Of a stretch of 64,000 nt of DNA, positions 1,776-61,025 are shown one piece after another. The DNA lies in the NCBI GenBank assembly GCA_041751215.1, contig JBGSXW010000002.1, forward strand, positions 350,591 to 414,590, read 5' to 3'. How positions within the stretch are numbered: position 1 is the first letter of the stretch; each line of letters starts with the position of its first letter. This stretch comes from Candidatus Saccharimonadales bacterium (lineage in GTDB: Bacteria; Patescibacteriota; Saccharimonadia; Saccharimonadales; JBGSXW01). Below the pieces are notes generated by a model. The model saw only the letters and a list, made by a program, of their open reading frames with translations, had not been told where the DNA came from and did no database searches. The position numbers and the translations under genes are program-made.

Positions 1776-1805
1776 CGAACCTGGTGCTTTGCACCTTCAG
1801 GTTCG
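1776..1805 (-). other. tRNA-trailer hairpin module (T-arm mimic) downstream of tRNA-Arg
   Basis: In tRNA sense: CGAACCT-GAA-GGTGC-AAA-GCACC-AGGTTCG. The 3' strand CAGGTTCG equals the 5' half of the tRNA-Arg T-arm. The architecture matches the modules at 32114-32143 and 4145-4171. Confidence 0.55.
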
Positions 1806-1835
1806 ATGCTTGTCAGAACTACCACGAAAACAAAA

Positions 1836-1850
1836 CCACCCCTTGGGTGG
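1836..1850. terminator. bidirectional stem-loop terminator
   Basis: CCACCC-CTT-GGGTGG is followed by cattatttt on the plus strand and by TTTTGTTTTC on the minus strand. It sits between the HEPN gene end and the 3' end of tRNA-Arg. Confidence 0.5.
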
Positions 1851-1861
1851 CATTATTTTCG

Positions 1862-1938
1862 TGGTACCCCGGGCAGGAATCGAACCTGCGACACGTGGGA
1901 TAGAAGCCCACTGCTCTAATCCGCTGAGCTACCGGGGC
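1862..1938 (-). tRNA. tRNA-Arg (anticodon TCT)
   Basis: Hand-folded cloverleaf GCCCCGG/CCGGGGT, anticodon arm GTGGG-CTTCTAT-CCCAC, T-arm GCAGG-TTCGATT-CCTGC, encoded ACCA. Confidence 0.95.
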
Positions 1939-2863: not shown

Positions 2864-3724
2864 GTGGTTTTAGGTTATAGTATGCAAATTATGTCTGTTG
2901 ACGTTTTTGACCCCATTCCCTGCTTGGACGAAGCTCGTGAACTAAAGGTTGGCTTCAGAGATCACCCGATTGATCCTGATCAGCCGCTTTTTGATGAACC
3001 GCTGGTTGCATTGGCCGATTACGGTGTTGAAGGTGTTAACTACTACAGTCAACCCAACAATGCCACCATCGATCCGGTTGAAGGCGTAACTCCCAACGTA
3101 TTTGTGCGTCGCACCGTAGCCGAGAAGTTAGCTGCCGCCGATGAGTTTCTTTTAGCCCACGACGGATTAGCGGCAATGTTTGATGGCCGTATTAAACTCT
3201 ACGTTCGCGACGGCTTTCGGTCTCCGGTTTTGCAGGAACACTTAAACAATACTGTGATCCCAAATCTGATCCGGACTCAGAATCCGCAGTGGTCCGAGCA
3301 GCAAGTAGCCCAGCGTGCTTCACAAGTTATGACTTCCGGTCTATGGAGTGAGTCCTCTATACCTCCGCACTTCACAGGTGGCGCCGCCGACGTAATACTG
3401 GTCAGAGCCGATGATGGATCGATTATTAACACCGGTTTTAAAATCGTTACTCTCGGCAGCGAAGCAATTCACACCGACCACCTAGAAGCCATTGATGTTG
3501 AAGAACATGAACTAGTGCTGGCTCGCTATGCTCGGCGCGCTTTGTATAATGTTTTAACTTCCAATGAAGTCGGCAATGTGGCGATGACTAACAATCCAAC
3601 TGAAACTTGGCATTTTTCTATTTACGATCAAATGTGGGCCCGACTCAGTAACCAGCCCGCAGCACTCTATGGAGTCCCGCCCGAAATACCAGAGGAATTA
3701 AATCTGGTGGAAATTAATAATTAG
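2864..3724 (+). CDS. D-alanyl-D-alanine dipeptidase family (peptidase M15, VanX/DdpX-like)
   Basis: PPHFTGGAADVILV and ETWHFS match the zinc-binding H..G.A.D and (E)WWHF motifs. The start is uncertain (GTG 2864, ATG 2881 or ATG 2890). Confidence 0.65.
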   Translation: MVLGYSMQIMSVDVFDPIPCLDEARELKVGFRDHPIDPDQPLFDEPLVALADYGVEGVNYYSQPNNATIDPVEGVTPNVFVRRTVAEKLAAADEFLLAHDGLAAMFDGRIKLYVRDGFRSPVLQEHLNNTVIPNLIRTQNPQWSEQQVAQRASQVMTSGLWSESSIPPHFTGGAADVILVRADDGSIINTGFKIVTLGSEAIHTDHLEAIDVEEHELVLARYARRALYNVLTSNEVGNVAMTNNPTETWHFSIYDQMWARLSNQPAALYGVPPEIPEELNLVEINN

Positions 3725-3727
3725 CTC

Positions 3728-3746
3728 TTGGTCGGGGTGAGAGGAC
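3728..3746 (-). repeat. exact 19-nt copy of the tRNA-Pro(CGG) 3' end (att-like direct repeat)
   Basis: TTGGTCGGGGTGAGAGGAC at 3728-3746 is identical to 3933-3951. It starts 4 nt after the stop of the upstream CDS. Confidence 0.85.
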
Positions 3747-3901
3747 AGCGCTCCGGCTTCGCGCGGGGCTAACCTCCGAATTATTTTGCTCGCTCGTAAA
3801 GTGCGCTTAACGCACCTCGCTCGGCCAAGCAAGGAAAACATAAAGCCAAGACTTTGGCTTTATGCCTATCGGTCGGAGGTTCAAGACCAACAATCAGCCA
3901 A
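3747..3901 (-). repeat. tRNA-trailer module E1 (GC-rich, hairpin-rich, built partly from tRNA-Pro T-arm pieces)
   Basis: AACCTCCGA (3771-3779) is a direct T-stem copy. GGTCGGAGGTTCAAGACC (3871-3888) is a 17/18 inverted copy of the tRNA T-arm. An 11-bp hairpin CATAAAGCCAA/TTGGCTTTATG is also present. There is no credible ORF. Confidence 0.6.
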
Positions 3902-3933
3902 CCAAAAAGGGCCACAAAGCGGCCCCCTTTGGT
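3902..3933 (-). terminator. intrinsic terminator after tRNA-Pro(CGG)
   Basis: Minus sense: GGGGCC-GCTTTGT-GGCCC followed by TTTTTGG. Confidence 0.6.
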
Positions 3934-4008
3934 TGGTCGGGGTGAGAGGACTTGAACCTCCGACCTCCGCGTCCCGAACGCGGCGCGCTACCACTGCGCC
4001 ACACCCCG
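3934..4008 (-). tRNA. tRNA-Pro (anticodon CGG)
   Basis: CGGGGTG/CACCCCG acceptor, CCGCG-TTCGGGA-CGCGG anticodon arm, GGAGG-TTCAAGT-CCTCT T-arm, encoded ACCA. Confidence 0.95.
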
Positions 4009-4040
4009 ATCAATAACTAAGTCTATCAAACGGTATTAGT

Positions 4041-4053
4041 GCGGTGAAAGGAC
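4041..4053 (-). repeat. degenerate copy of the tRNA-Pro(TGG) 3' end
   Basis: GCGGTGAAAGGAC versus GGGGTGAAAGGAC in the tRNA (4233-4245), 12/13 identical. Its position is analogous to the 3728-3746 copy. Confidence 0.45.
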
Positions 4054-4190
4054 ATCGCGCGGCTAAGAAGTGAGTGAAAGGGGCCGCCTTCGGCGCGTTT
4101 CCTCATGTGCTCGAAGTAAACTTCTGCGCGCATTCGTCACGAACGAACCTTCTGCTACGCAGTACAGGTTCTCGGGTCTATGCATCCGCA
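4054..4190 (-). repeat. tRNA-trailer module E2 (homolog of the module after tRNA-Lys)
   Basis: The reverse complement of 4110-4149 matches 32138-32177 at 33/40 positions without gaps (hand count). The hairpin GAACCT...AGGTTC (4145-4171) has a 3' strand, in tRNA sense, of GAAGGTTCG, which equals the tRNA-Pro(TGG) T-arm. Confidence 0.65.
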
Positions 4191-4227
4191 CCAAGCAAAA
4201 AGCCCTGCATTAGCAGGACTCTTTGCT
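4191..4227 (-). terminator. intrinsic terminator after tRNA-Pro(TGG)
   Basis: Minus sense: AGTCCTGC-TAAT-GCAGGGCT followed by TTTTTGCTTGG. Confidence 0.6.
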
Positions 4228-4304
4228 TGGTCGGGGTGAAAGGACTCGAACCTTCGACCCCCGCGTCCCAAACGCGGTGCGCTAGCCAACTGCGCTACAC
4301 CCCG
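4228..4304 (-). tRNA. tRNA-Pro (anticodon TGG)
   Basis: CGGGGTG/CACCCCG acceptor, CCGCG-TTTGGGA-CGCGG anticodon arm, GAAGG-TTCGAGT-CCTTT T-arm, encoded ACCA. Confidence 0.95.
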
Positions 4305-31981: not shown

Positions 31982-32058
31982 GGGCCCATAGCTCAGCCGG
32001 TTAGAGCACCTGCCTTTTAAGCAGGGTGTCCTGGGTTCGAGTCCCAGTGGGCCCTCCA
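31982..32058 (+). tRNA. tRNA-Lys (anticodon TTT)
   Basis: GGGCCCA/TGGGCCC acceptor, CCTGC-CTTTTAA-GCAGG anticodon arm, CTGGG-TTCGAGT-CCCAG T-arm, encoded CCA. Confidence 0.95.
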
Positions 32059-32095
32059 ATCTAAGAACCTGCCGTATGGCGGGTTTTTAGATTGG
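32056..32095 (+). terminator. intrinsic terminator after tRNA-Lys
   Basis: CCAATCTAA...AACCTGCC-GTAT-GGCGGGTT-TTT...TTAGATTGG, a nested stem ending in a T-run. Confidence 0.6.
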
Positions 32096-32096
32096 A

Positions 32097-32282
32097 GAGA
32101 TTTATTGCGTACTCGAACCCATGACGGCGTAGCCGTGGGTTCGTTCGTGAGGAGCTCTCGCAGAAGCTTGCTTCGAGAAAGTGACGAAACGGCGAACGTA
32201 AGTGAGCGCCCCCGGTGGGCCAATTTCAATCGCGAGCTGAGAGGGCGAGCGTAGATGCAAATTGCCCCCAGTGGGTTTTCAC
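32097..32282 (+). repeat. tRNA-trailer module D (homolog of E2) with degenerate tRNA-Lys 3'-end copies
   Basis: Hairpin CGAACCC-ATG-ACGGC-GTA-GCCGT-GGGTTCG (32114-32143). 32138-32177 matches E2 at 33/40. CCCCCGGTGGGCC (32209-32221) and CCCCCAGTGGG (32265-32275) echo the tRNA segment CCCAGTGGGCC. Confidence 0.6.
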
Positions 32283-60734: not shown

Positions 60735-60781
60735 TGGTAGCGGCGACTGGATTTGAACCAGTGACCCCAGGCTTATGAGTC
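60735..60781 (-). pseudogene. truncated tRNA(CAT): 3' half only (anticodon loop to CCA)
   Basis: GACTCATAAGCCTGGGGTCACTGGTTCAAATCCAGTCGCCGCTACCA is 40/47 identical to the 3' half of the intact tRNA at 60949-61025, with compensatory T-stem changes. There is no matching 5' acceptor strand upstream. Confidence 0.8.
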
Positions 60782-60948
60782 TTGCCTTTGACGCTAATGC
60801 TAACGACTTCACCAAGGTGTACGAACGAGCATCACTGCGTTTTCGTCAGCACATGATTGGTGCTATTGCCGTCAACTCTAGCCGTCAGAATGATTAACAC
60901 GAGCAGGGATTAAGTTGTTATTTGTATAACTTTTTTAATAAAGTCAAA

Positions 60949-61025
60949 TGGTAGCACCGACAGGAATTGAACCTGTGACCTTAGGCTTATGAGTCCTACG
61001 CTCTAACCAACTGAGCTACGGTGCC
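60949..61025 (-). tRNA. tRNA with CAT anticodon (elongator Met or lysidine-dependent Ile2)
   Basis: GGCACCG/CGGTGCT acceptor, loop CTCATAA, T-arm ACAGG-TTCAATT-CCTGT, encoded ACCA. It is not initiator-like. There is an A31-G39 mismatch. Confidence 0.9.

What the first reader, a model, noticed from the sequence alone, without database searches (positions are those of the whole stretch)
3728..4304. Two tandem tRNA-Pro units, each followed by terminator, GC-rich module and a copy of the tRNA 3' end
Unit 1, read in tRNA sense on the minus strand, has four parts. They are tRNA-Pro(CGG) 4008-3934, a terminator, module E1, and an exact 19-nt copy of the tRNA 3' end (3728-3746 = 3933-3951). In that copy region the tRNA T-loop appears split. 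TCGGAGGTT and GTCCTCTCACCCCGACCA are separated by 24 nt (complement of 3747-3770) instead of the 3-nt CAA. E1 also holds a 17/18 inverted copy of the T-arm (3871-3888) that could base-pair with the genuine T-arm in a precursor transcript. Unit 2 repeats the plan: tRNA-Pro(TGG) 4304-4228, a terminator, module E2, and a degenerate 3'-end copy at 4041-4053. Breakpoints inside the T-loop plus a direct repeat of the 3' end match what T-loop-class integrases leave behind. However, the 'islands' are only about 150-190 bp and non-coding.
Basis: partly seen in the sequence, partly recalled or inferred. Interest (0 to 1): 0.62.

Follow-up and report, generated by a model that had tools for sequence, protein, structure and literature searches.

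The report
Tiny structured insertions behind tRNA genes
Each of the two proline tRNA genes is followed by a small non-coding insertion that rebuilds the tRNA's tail and leaves the old tail behind; these insertions belong to a large, apparently undescribed family found behind many tRNA genes in Saccharibacteria and in unclassified metagenome contigs.

Summary
tRNA-Pro(CGG) and tRNA-Pro(TGG), both on the minus strand, are each followed by a terminator hairpin, a GC-rich folded module and a copy of the tRNA's last 18 nt.

It is not a one-off. In 80 Saccharibacteria loci and more than 120 metagenome contigs the same plan follows tRNAs of more than 20 identities:
- tRNA with CCA;
- a terminator whose stem includes the CCA;
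- a palindromic hairpin CGAACC…GGTTCG (P2);
- a structured insert (X);
- an exact copy of the upstream tRNA from T-loop position 58/59 to the final CCA (B').

The main helix of X shows strong compensatory change. X is homologous across unrelated tRNAs. Occupancy varies between species, empty sites exist, and up to three diverged modules stack behind one tRNA. No enzyme gene is linked, no Rfam family matches, and the two X motifs searched gave no viral-contig hit. Large serine-recombinase islands use the same tRNA ends but cross over elsewhere, so they are a separate class.

Best reading (about 0.45): these are miniature, non-autonomous insertion elements that target the tRNA T-loop/3' end, regenerate the tRNA and carry a strand-specific folded domain. 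The mobilising enzyme is unknown.

The parts
4228..4304 (-). tRNA-Pro(TGG), CCA encoded
   Evidence: ARAGORN; Rfam RF00005, 66.4 bits
4191..4230 (-). Unit 2 terminator-type hairpin. Its stem starts with the tRNA's CCA (CCAAGCAAAGAGTCCTGC-TAAT-GCAGGGCTTTTTGCTTGG).
   Evidence: (I1); the same CCA…TGG design is seen behind tRNAs in relatives
4144..4174 (-). Unit 2 hairpin P2: GAGAACCT – small hairpin (CTGC GTA GCAG) – AAGGTTCG. The 3' arm repeats the tRNA's T-stem/T-loop 5' side.
   Evidence: the homologous hairpins behind tRNA-Lys and tRNA-Arg in this window use their own tRNA's T-stem bases
4084..4143 (-). Unit 2 structured insert X (beta flavour). It contains the conserved hairpin CGCAGAAGTTTACTTCGAG at 4110-4128.
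   Evidence: the flanking helix covaries across 79 distinct copies
4039..4083 (-). Two decayed copies of the tRNA-Pro(TGG) 3' end (4070-4083 CCCCTTTCACTCAC; 4039-4053 GTCCTTTCACCGCAC). They are separated by TTCTTAGCCGCGCGAT, which looks like a shortened X1-type hairpin.
   Evidence: (D3); the X1 resemblance is my own reading of the sequence
3934..4008 (-). tRNA-Pro(CGG), CCA encoded
   Evidence: ARAGORN; Rfam, 68.8 bits
3898..3936 (-). Unit 1 terminator hairpin, whose stem includes the CCA
   Evidence: 18 pairs, T-run; I4
3871..3888 (-). Inverted copy of the tRNA T-arm (17/18). It is the 5' arm of the unit 1 P2 helix and pairs with 3771-3780.
   Evidence: I2; fold
3839..3864 (-). Hairpin CATAAAGCCAAAGTCTTGGCTTTATG inside the P2 loop. 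25 of its 26 nt (3838-3862) are identical to the hairpin that directly follows the tRNA-His 3'-end copy in species L017.
   Evidence: blastn 25/25, window 3838-3862
3786..3832 (-). Folded core TTGCTTGGCC-GAGCGAG-hairpin-GAGCGAGCAA. Its 5' part is shared with the module behind tRNA-Pro(CGG) of L023; the searched 14-mer TTCCTTGCTTGGCC matches exactly, and two more preceding T match in the printed sequences.
3771..3779 (-). Direct copy of the 5' side of the T-arm (TCGGAGGTT, ends at T55)
3747..3770 (-). X1: a 24-nt closed hairpin that replaces C56-A58 of the T-loop. The same hairpin type sits at the same place behind both Pro tRNAs of L017, with compensatory changes (CCCG/CGGA to TTGG/CCAA).
3728..3746 (-). 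B': an exact copy of tRNA positions 59-76 (GTCCTCTCACCCCGACCA) plus one base. It abuts the stop codon of the convergent dipeptidase-like gene (2864-3724).
   Evidence: (D2)

Best explanation
**What they are.** E1 and E2 are members of a family of miniature, non-coding, non-autonomous insertion modules, typically 136-175 bp. They target the 3' part of tRNA genes in Saccharibacteria; metagenome copies come from unclassified contigs.

**What each insertion does (inferred from anatomy).**
- It places a new terminator, a palindromic hairpin (CGAACC…GGTTCG, 'P2') and a folded domain ('X') next to the tRNA.
- Its footprint is a direct repeat of tRNA positions 58/59-76.
- The gene therefore stays intact, with a fresh terminator, and the displaced original 3' end (B') is left behind X, in front of the tRNA's native flank.
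- Because the intact tRNA is regenerated, the site can be hit again. This gives arrays with the newest module nearest the tRNA.

**What X is (inferred).** X is a domain folded on the tRNA-sense strand. I take it to be the cis-acting structure of the element: it would bring GGTTCG and B' together as a T-arm-like site, or be bound by the mobilising factor.

**How the two units here fit.**
- Unit 1 is young: its repeats are exact.
- Unit 2 is older: its repeats have decayed, and it probably records two successive events.

**Shown versus inferred.**
- Shown: the anatomy, the precise repeat boundaries, homology of X across tRNA identities, covariation, variable occupancy, an empty site, arrays, and the absence of a linked gene.
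- Inferred: that the modules move, how they move, and that an enzyme acts in trans.
For: **Repeat boundaries and spacing.**
- Copies of a tRNA's last 16-17 nt outside tRNA genes lie only downstream on the same strand, never on the opposite strand. 38 of 50 lie 77-224 nt away, most of them 136-175 nt.
- In 54 tRNA-linked modules, 29 carry an exact copy of at least 12 nt. It starts 18 nt (15 cases) or 19 nt (9 cases) from the tRNA's 3' end.
- In 21 modules with an exact 17-nt copy, identity stops within 0-2 nt after CCA in 18.
- The copy always matches the tRNA just upstream, across more than 20 identities.
- Swapped-tRNA controls give 0.7 inverted copies against 5 observed, and 2.1 3'-end copies against 8 observed.

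**X is one homologous family.**
- Flanks of the conserved hairpin are up to 39/48 identical between modules on tRNAs of different identity.
- The window's Pro(TGG) and Lys modules share a rare flavour.

**Insertion history.**
- L112 carries three diverged modules in series behind one tRNA-Arg. Each ends in the same 3'-end copy, and the first two start with their own terminator.
- L103 carries three and L027 carries two.
- Empty arrangements exist: L070 and L077 have Pro(TGG), then 50 nt, then Pro(CGG).
- In L010 the tRNA's CCA is followed directly by the flank that in L017 follows B'.
- An orthologous locus (L088) has a module of the E2 type behind tRNA-Pro(GGG), followed by a second terminator that reads as the tRNA's native one.

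**X is folded, on the tRNA-sense strand.**
- 92.8% of cells are paired against 80.5% in shuffles, and 10 pairs change on both sides.
- 0 of 500 shuffles reach the observed values, and slid controls give 32-44%.
- 79 distinct stems keep Watson-Crick pairing with all four pair types around a conserved C·A mismatch.
- G·T outnumbers A·C 28 to 12, and C-GNA-G hairpin caps lie on the tRNA-sense strand.

**No linked gene.** The downstream neighbours of 76 modules fall into 96 Pfam families, none present more than 3 times.
Against: - No mobilising enzyme, circular form or within-species presence/absence polymorphism was found. Movement is inferred from between-species comparison only.
- A classical site-specific element would have to carry a 3' end that fits each target tRNA. 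One X family sits on more than 20 tRNA identities, which is hard to reconcile with a fixed attP and may point to a target-duplicating or guided mechanism instead.
- The modules have no terminal inverted repeats (my reading of the ends).
- Some modules have no tRNA nearby (L131). Some variants close X with a generic stem rather than a T-arm (L096, L122).
- The metagenome set was selected on the 19-nt core, so conservation of that core is partly ascertainment.
- The covariation would equally fit a host RNA.
Confidence: 0.45

Rival explanations
1. **Host-encoded cis RNA.** The module is part of the tRNA transcription unit: a structured 3' trailer that helps termination, 3'-end maturation or protection, or acts as a decoy for enzymes that recognise the T-arm/acceptor end. 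The tRNA-matching segments are kept by selection for pairing or by gene conversion. The module spreads between tRNA loci by occasional duplication.
For: - The module is always co-oriented with the tRNA and immediately downstream of it.
- There is strong covariation and a sense-strand bias of G·T pairs.
- Folds are much better than shuffles.
- In this window, four of six tRNAs carry such a module: Pro, Pro, Lys and Arg.
Against: - A strong intrinsic terminator lies between the tRNA and the module in most copies, so little read-through is expected.
- Most tRNA-Pro(TGG) genes of related species lack a module.
- The 3'-end copy decays freely, as in unit 2 here and in 25 of 54 metagenome copies.
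- The T-stem usually cannot form in the module, because the left copy is mostly just GGTTCG.
- Arrays of three diverged modules are hard to explain by function.
Confidence: 0.2
2. **Scaffold-plus-guide RNA, or an IS200/IS605-like miniature element.** X is the end of a single-strand transposon inserted 3' of the T-loop motif GGTTCG(A). Read out into the flank, it would give a structured RNA with an 18-19-nt 3' guide (B') that matches the tRNA gene next to a TAM-like motif, as in TnpB omega/reRNAs. A variant is a mechanism with a fixed-length target duplication, as in casposons or CRISPR repeats.
For: - X always lies between GGTTCG and position 58/59, and the matching segment has a constant 18-19 nt.
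- Folding is strand-specific, with many C-GNA-G caps. From my own knowledge, such caps are very stable in single-stranded DNA.
- Arrays grow next to the intact target, as CRISPR repeats do.
- From my own knowledge, casposons insert at tRNA 3' ends with a 14-15-bp duplication.
Against: - No TnpA, TnpB, Cas1 or reverse-transcriptase gene was seen near 76 modules, and none appears in the top-25 family list for the window (list truncated).
- No Rfam family matched, including the IS605-associated RNA families I recall being in Rfam.
- The two hairpins of X are unlike each other, and there are no terminal inverted repeats.
- Insertion of X alone does not explain the intact tRNA with a new terminator upstream.
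- A guide against the cell's own tRNA gene would be self-targeting.
Confidence: 0.15
3. **Decayed scars of ordinary genomic islands.** Larger integrated elements, such as the serine-recombinase islands seen at the same tRNA ends, lost their cargo by deletion. Only the two ends and the att repeats remain.
For: - Large serine-recombinase islands sit at tRNA-Pro or tRNA-Glu 3' ends in L016, L019, L024, L030, L047, L053, L084, L179, L191 and L208. The recombinase stop codon often lies inside the tRNA.
- tRNA-Met in the window has a diverged anticodon-loop-to-CCA copy about 170 nt downstream.
Against: - The module length distribution is tight, mostly 136-175 nt.
- The internal architecture is conserved and covaries.
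- In L179, L191 and L208 the island has its own, different junction: a diverged copy in which only the last 6-8 nt match the tRNA. There the island sits between the tRNA and an already complete module.
- So the islands and the modules are separate entities with different breakpoints.
Confidence: 0.12
4. **Simple tandem duplication.** The tRNA unit, or its 3' half with the terminator, was duplicated and the second copy then decayed.
For: - The two Pro tRNAs are 85% identical over 73 nt (D1).
- In a few modules the repeat runs on into the terminator: L110, L160 and L165. L115 and L037 look similar by eye.
Against: - No trace of the tRNA 5' two-thirds lies upstream of the copies.
- The repeat stops exactly at CCA in 18 of 21 cases.
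- Homologous X occurs behind unrelated tRNAs.
- TGG and CGG are adjacent without modules in relatives.
Confidence: 0.03

Closest known systems
Integrative elements at tRNA genes with T-loop sublocation (attL/attR repeats of the tRNA 3' part; Williams 2002 classification, from my own knowledge)
   Same: - There is a direct repeat of the tRNA from the T-loop to the 3' end.
- The tRNA is regenerated.
- The displaced native end is kept in front of the native flank.
- Tandem accumulation occurs and occupancy is variable.
   Different: - There is no integrase and no cargo, and the size is only ~150 bp.
- One homologous family sits on more than 20 tRNA identities.
- A conserved folded insert sits exactly at the breakpoint.
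- The repeat ends exactly at CCA.
Large serine recombinase islands (found here in related genomes: L084, L179, L191, L208 and others)
   Same: They use the same hot spot, the tRNA 3' end. They keep the tRNA intact by carrying a replacement end, with the recombinase stop codon inside the tRNA.
   Different: - They are 2-6 kb with cargo (for example PvuII-type restriction-modification in L179).
- Their junction copy shares only the last 6-8 nt with the tRNA.
- They are inserted beside, not around, the modules.
Casposons and CRISPR repeat duplication (Cas1-type integration; from my own knowledge)
   Same: - A fixed-length duplication of the target.
- In casposons, that target is the 3' end of a tRNA gene.
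- The target is regenerated, so arrays grow at one end.
   Different: No Cas1 gene and no terminal inverted repeats were seen. The duplication is 18-19 bp. The inserted unit is a conserved folded element, not a spacer or a 10-kb transposon.
IS200/IS605 miniature derivatives (PATEs) and TnpB reRNA/omega RNA (from my own knowledge)
   Same: - A strand-specific hairpin-rich element inserted 3' of a short conserved motif.
- A scaffold followed by a ~18-nt segment identical to a nearby target.
   Different: - No TnpA or TnpB gene was found.
- No Rfam hit was found.
- The hairpins of X are unlike each other.
- An intact target copy with a new terminator is always present upstream.
REP/BIME/REPIN and other intergenic hairpin repeats
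   Same: They are small, non-coding and hairpin-rich, lie near terminators, and are non-autonomous.
   Different: Those repeats are not tied to tRNA genes and do not duplicate the neighbouring gene's 3' end.

Membership tests
tRNA-integrating element with T-loop crossover (tyrosine integrase att scar) | Direct repeat of the tRNA 3' part beginning in the T-loop, flanking the inserted DNA | tested here: met
tRNA-integrating element with T-loop crossover (tyrosine integrase att scar) | Integrase gene within the inserted DNA, or at least in full-length family members | tested here: not met
   The modules are non-coding. The downstream neighbours of 76 modules show no recurrent recombinase among the 25 most frequent families listed. 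The only islands found carry serine recombinases and have other breakpoints.
tRNA-integrating element with T-loop crossover (tyrosine integrase att scar) | Presence/absence variation with an empty site that equals tRNA plus native flank | tested here: met
   (between species only)
Large serine recombinase island | Large serine recombinase gene (Resolvase, Recombinase and zinc-ribbon domains) at one end | tested here: not met
   tblastn found no homologue in the window. Such genes are present only in other loci.
IS200/IS605 PATE / TnpB guide RNA | Family members encode Y1 TnpA and/or TnpB, and the element inserts 3' of a fixed 4-5-nt motif without target duplication | tested here: inconclusive
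   The left flank of X is always GGTTCG. However, no such genes were seen and an 18-19-nt repeat is present.
Any Rfam RNA family (ribozymes, IS605-associated RNAs, tRNA-like RNAs) | Covariance-model match at or near the gathering score | tested here: not met
   Only tRNA (and one group I intron in L115) reached threshold. Weak miRNA/sRNA matches are chance-level.
Casposon / Cas1-type insertion | Terminal inverted repeats and a Cas1 gene in autonomous members, with a fixed-length target duplication | tested here: inconclusive
   A fixed 18-19-nt duplication is met. I saw no terminal inverted repeats when reading the module ends. Cas1 was not searched for specifically.
Integron cassette / attC | Imperfect palindrome with inverse core and core sites (RYYYAAC…GTTRRRY), recombined by IntI as folded single strand | tested here: inconclusive
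   P2 is a palindrome ..GAACC…GGTTC.. with a variable centre. No IntI was seen, and the core is GTTCGA, not GTTRRRY.
tRNA pseudogene from tandem duplication | Remnants of the tRNA 5' part upstream of the 3' copy | tested here: not met
   ARAGORN and Rfam find nothing there

The most novel reading that the evidence does not exclude
The modules are a new class of non-coding mobile element moved by a 'programmable' mechanism rather than a fixed att site. Two forms are possible:
- an integrase that measures and duplicates the 18-19 bp from T-loop position 58/59 to the CCA end (casposon/CRISPR-like logic applied to any tRNA gene);
- a ribonucleoprotein in which X is the scaffold and the adjoining tRNA 3'-end copy is the guide, with the universal T-loop motif GGTTCGA serving as the adjacent motif.

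Either would explain how one X family sits precisely at the same position of more than 20 different tRNAs while always restoring the gene.
Probability: 0.2. Interest if true: 0.9.

Novelty: new variant of a known kind. Interest (0 to 1): 0.72.

Why it matters
- **Mobile DNA in tiny genomes.** If the modules are mobile, they are among the smallest site-specific elements known, and they thrive in ultra-small, streamlined genomes.
- **A general trick for harmless insertion.** They show how to insert into essential tRNA genes of any identity without harm.
- **A lead to new machinery.** The folded domain X, with its invariant hairpin, conserved C·A mismatch and strongly covarying helix, is a new structured nucleic-acid motif with no Rfam family. 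The unknown factor that recognises it could be a new recombinase or guided system.
- **Practical effects.** The repeats may break assemblies: the one short-read contig of this organism that I retrieved ends inside tRNA-Pro(TGG). They also create tRNA-like fragments that can mislead tRNA, prophage and island annotation in Patescibacteria.

Tried and rejected
- **Rfam.** Scans at gathering and at permissive thresholds, on the window and on 8 metagenome loci, gave nothing but tRNAs and one group I intron.
- **Viral contigs.** Exact-pattern scans for the E2 core and for X1 gave 0 hits.
- **Exact-protein look-up of the flanking genes.**
  - It gave one short contig that ends in the tRNA.
  - For my start-codon choice of the dipeptidase gene it gave nothing.
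- **Dipeptidase homologues (62-64% identical, L082-L087).**
  - Most have no tRNA next to them, so they were of limited use.
  - L084 revealed a serine-recombinase island.
  - The more distant homologue in L088 (55%) revealed a module.
- **Serine-recombinase islands as parents of the modules.** I considered this and rejected it after reading the junctions.
- **Hammerhead-like reading of the beta flavour (UGAGGAG…CGAAAC).** Rejected because no hammerhead model scored.
- **X as a T-loop intron of a real tRNA.** Rejected because no tRNA 5' part precedes it.
- **Single-sequence DNA folds.** They did not discriminate between strands.
- **Pfam scan of the window's ORFs.** It returned only a truncated top-25 list with no mobile-element enzyme.
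- **Literature.** Five full-text searches found no description of these modules. The closest paper concerns anticodon-loop group I introns in Patescibacteria tRNAs (PMC13011429).
Full report
**1. The observation**

The window comes from a Saccharibacteria genome. Its RNase Y is 69-79% identical to those of 80 Saccharimonadales/Saccharibacteria assemblies.

ARAGORN and Rfam place tRNA-Pro(CGG) at 3934-4008 and tRNA-Pro(TGG) at 4228-4304, both on the minus strand and both with CCA encoded.

- The 18-nt 3' end of the CGG tRNA recurs exactly at 3729-3746. With the next base this makes 19 nt. Chance expectation is 0.02.
- TCGGAGGTT at 3771-3779 lies 24 nt upstream of the copy. The 24-mer between them is unique in the window.
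- A 17/18 inverted copy of the T-arm lies at 3871-3888.
- Terminator hairpins lie at 3898-3936 and 4191-4230.
- A degenerate copy of the TGG tRNA end lies at 4039-4053, and a second remnant at 4070-4083.
- Both spacers fold much better than shuffled sequence, with z = -6.0 and -4.2.

**2. It is a family, not a local accident**

I fetched 80 Saccharibacteria loci through RNase Y and examined all 105 tRNAs in those loci plus the window.

- Copies of a tRNA's last 16 nt outside tRNA genes occur only 100-350 nt downstream of that same tRNA, on the same strand.
- This holds for Pro, His and Arg tRNAs of six other species.
- Controls with swapped tRNAs give far fewer matches.

The downstream sequences show one recurring plan:

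- tRNA with CCA;
- a terminator hairpin whose stem includes the CCA;
- often a small hairpin;
- a hairpin P2 whose arms are ..GAACC.. and ..GGTTCG, sometimes extended by the tRNA's own T-stem bases;
- an insert X;
- a copy B' of the tRNA's T-stem 3' strand, acceptor 3' strand and CCA.

In this window, tRNA-Lys (module 32056-32275, plus strand) and tRNA-Arg (1776-1864, minus strand) carry the same kind of module as tRNA-Pro(TGG).

Unit 1's 24-nt X1 hairpin recurs behind both Pro tRNAs of species L017. There it is flanked by that species' own T-stem bases, and one copy has the compensatory change CCCG/CGGA to TTGG/CCAA.

Other pieces of E1 recur elsewhere.

- The searched 14-mer TTCCTTGCTTGGCC matches the L023 module exactly, and the two T before it also match in the printed sequences.
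- 25 of the 26 nt of the hairpin CATAAAGCCAAAGTCTTGGCTTTATG recur in L017.

**3. The wider family**

The 19-nt hairpin of E2 (CGCAGAAGYTTRCTTCGAG) is identical in the window and in L088. L088 is an orthologous locus where the same dipeptidase-like gene (55% identical) converges on tRNA-Pro(GGG), a module, an exact 18-nt B' and a second terminator.

- Of 127 instances, 54 have an ARAGORN tRNA within 330 nt upstream on the same strand, covering more than 20 identities. The median distance from the tRNA end to the hairpin is 103 nt.
- Some apparent orphans are explained:
  - a tRNA with a group I intron that ARAGORN misses (L115);
  - contig ends that cut off the upstream sequence;
  - an older module or island lying upstream.
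- A few seem truly detached from any tRNA (L131).
- About 25 instances belong to a different, tRNA-free element that shares only the apical hairpin.

**4. Precision of the repeat**

- In 29 of 54 tRNA-linked modules there is an exact copy of at least 12 nt of the upstream tRNA.
- It begins 18 nt (15 cases) or 19 nt (9 cases) from the 3' end, which is T-loop position 59 or 58.
- In 18 of 21 modules with an exact 17-nt copy, identity stops within 0-2 nt after CCA.
- The sequence left of X is always ..GGTTCG (positions 52-57), usually with only 0-2 further tRNA-specific bases.

**5. X is a folded, homologous domain**

- RNAalifold on 14 alpha-type copies predicts a helix below the invariant hairpin, with 5-7 double changes per pair.
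- Counted with controls, 92.8% of cells pair against 80.5% in shuffles. No shuffle of 500 reaches any of the measures, and slid partners give 32-44%.
- In 79 distinct copies, positions 1, 3 and 4 below the hairpin are 86-94% Watson-Crick with all four pair types.
- Position 2 is a conserved C·A (60 of 79).
- G·T outnumbers A·C 28 to 12 at positions 4-7, so it is the tRNA-sense strand that folds.
- Hairpin caps are mostly triloops of the C-GNA-G type. From my own knowledge these are exceptionally stable in single-stranded DNA, although GNRA tetraloops also occur.
- The flanks of the hairpin are up to 39/48 identical between modules attached to tRNAs of different identity, for example Glu/Val, Arg/Gln and Ser/Met. 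X has therefore moved between tRNA identities on an evolutionary time scale.

**6. Evidence for insertion**

- Related species have the two Pro tRNAs 50 nt apart with no modules (L070, L077). Most tRNA-Pro(TGG) genes in the 80 loci carry none.
- In L010 the tRNA's CCA is followed directly by a flank with its terminator. In L017 the homologous flank follows B'.
- The inserted segment therefore runs from the start of the first repeat to the start of the second, and it brings its own terminator.
- L112 has three diverged modules in series behind one tRNA-Arg. Each ends in ATCCTACCCGGTGTA(CCA). The first two have their own terminators and the native terminator comes last.
- L103 has three modules and L027 two near-identical ones.
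- Independent, diverged modules at one tRNA mean repeated hits on a target that is regenerated each time.
- In the window, unit 1 has exact repeats and looks young. Unit 2 has two decayed copies separated by what looks like a shortened X1 hairpin, so it probably records two older events.

**7. What moves them?**

Nothing is linked. The largest ORF within about 2 kb downstream of each of 76 modules falls into 96 Pfam families, none seen more than three times. The window's ORFs look like housekeeping genes (truncated list).

Six tRNAs had their 3'-end copy 0.8-6.3 kb away. I examined two of them.

- In L179 and L191 the intervening DNA is an island with a large serine recombinase next to the tRNA.
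- In L179 the stop codon of that gene lies inside the tRNA, and the island carries a PvuII-type restriction-modification system.
- Homologous recombinases abut tRNA-Pro(TGG) in L016, L019, L024, L030, L047 and L053.
- One also abuts the tRNA in L084, the locus orthologous to the window's.

Reading the junctions shows that these islands are a separate class.

- Their far end carries a diverged copy (GTTCCA…) that shares only the last 6-8 nt with the tRNA.
- That copy is followed by the module's own terminator, P2, X and B'.
- So the island entered between the tRNA and a module that was already there, and it uses a different crossover point.

**8. Interpretation**

The best-supported reading is that E1 and E2 are miniature non-autonomous insertion modules that target the T-loop/3' end of tRNA genes, regenerate the gene and leave the native 3' end behind X.

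It does not capture the nature of the thing: there is no integrase, no decay from a larger island, and the 'interruptions' are the conserved, folded heart of the element.

The mechanism is open.

- A fixed attP carrying a tRNA-specific 3' end fits poorly with one X family on more than 20 tRNA identities.
- A mechanism that duplicates the local 18-19 bp, or one guided by the adjoining copy, would fit better. Neither has support from a linked gene.
- A purely host-functional RNA is weakened by four observations:
  - a terminator lies in front of the module;
  - occupancy is patchy;
  - B' decays freely;
  - diverged modules stack in arrays.

**9. Comparison with known systems and novelty**

The modules work like tRNA-targeting integrative elements, and they resemble casposon/CRISPR logic in regenerating and duplicating a fixed target. 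They fail the membership tests I could run:

- no recombinase;
- no terminal inverted repeats;
- no Rfam family;
- no transposase.

I found no description in five full-text literature searches. The nearest paper concerns anticodon-loop group I introns of Patescibacteria tRNAs (PMC13011429). I file the modules as a new variant of a known kind. I give a 0.2 chance that the mechanism is of a new kind.

Noticed in passing
window 32056-32275 (+), behind tRNA-Lys(TTT) 31982-32058: A module of the same rare 'beta' flavour as unit 2. It has a terminator including the CCA, P2 built from the Lys T-stem bases (CTCGAACCCA…TGGGTTCG), the X hairpin CGCAGAAGCTTGCTTCGAG, and two decayed copies of the Lys 3' end.
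   Followed up: partly
window 1776-1864 (-), behind tRNA-Arg(TCT) 1862-1938: A terminator including the CCA, then P2 with Arg-specific bases (ATCGAACCTG-hairpin-CAGGTTCG). The rest looks decayed, with no core hairpin and no clear 3'-end copy.
   Followed up: partly
window 60735-60783 (-), about 170 nt downstream of tRNA-Met 60949-61025: A diverged copy of a tRNA-Met from the anticodon loop to CCA. It shares an exact 13 nt (GACTCATAAGCCT), then has compensated differences in the T-stem and acceptor. This is the signature of an anticodon-loop-type integration scar, a different class from the Pro modules.
   Followed up: no
L084 3634-5250, L179 1268-2809, L191 2709-3977, L208, L016, L019, L024, L030, L047, L053: Large serine recombinase genes abut the 3' end of tRNA-Pro(TGG), tRNA-Glu or tRNA-Gln in many Saccharibacteria. 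The stop codon often lies inside the tRNA on the opposite strand. Cargo includes a PvuII-type restriction-modification pair (L179) and DUF5681 (L084).
   Followed up: partly
L089, L090, L091 (3500-3640), L119, L128, L164, L168, L198 and about 15 more metagenome loci: A different, tRNA-free, roughly 130-nt folded element carries the same apical hairpin CGCAGAAGCTTGCTTCGAG on a long stem (…CCCGGCGGATAAGGCCGGGCCTTT[hairpin]GAAAGG…GGCC…GCCAAAGCYGGC). It is followed by short AATCNGCGT-like repeats. It has no Rfam match and its host is unknown.
   Followed up: no
tRNA 3' flanks in the window and in L009, L017, L037, L071, L088: Terminator hairpins behind Saccharibacteria tRNAs regularly begin with the tRNA's own CCA and end in …TGG. 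The 3' end of the mature tRNA is therefore part of the terminator stem.
   Followed up: no
L115 472-700 (-): A group I intron (Rfam RF00028, 101.8 bits) interrupts the tRNA upstream of a module, which is why ARAGORN missed that tRNA.
   Followed up: no
L001 (Logan SRR28170463 contig, 8680 nt): The only short-read contig found with this organism's histidine-phosphatase gene ends inside tRNA-Pro(TGG). This would be expected if the repeated tRNA ends break the assembly.
   Followed up: no
L131 456 and 2805 (+): Two modules lie in one 10-kb contig with no tRNA gene at all. The first still has a T-stem that can pair (GTGGG/CCCAC). These are orphan modules of unknown origin.
   Followed up: partly
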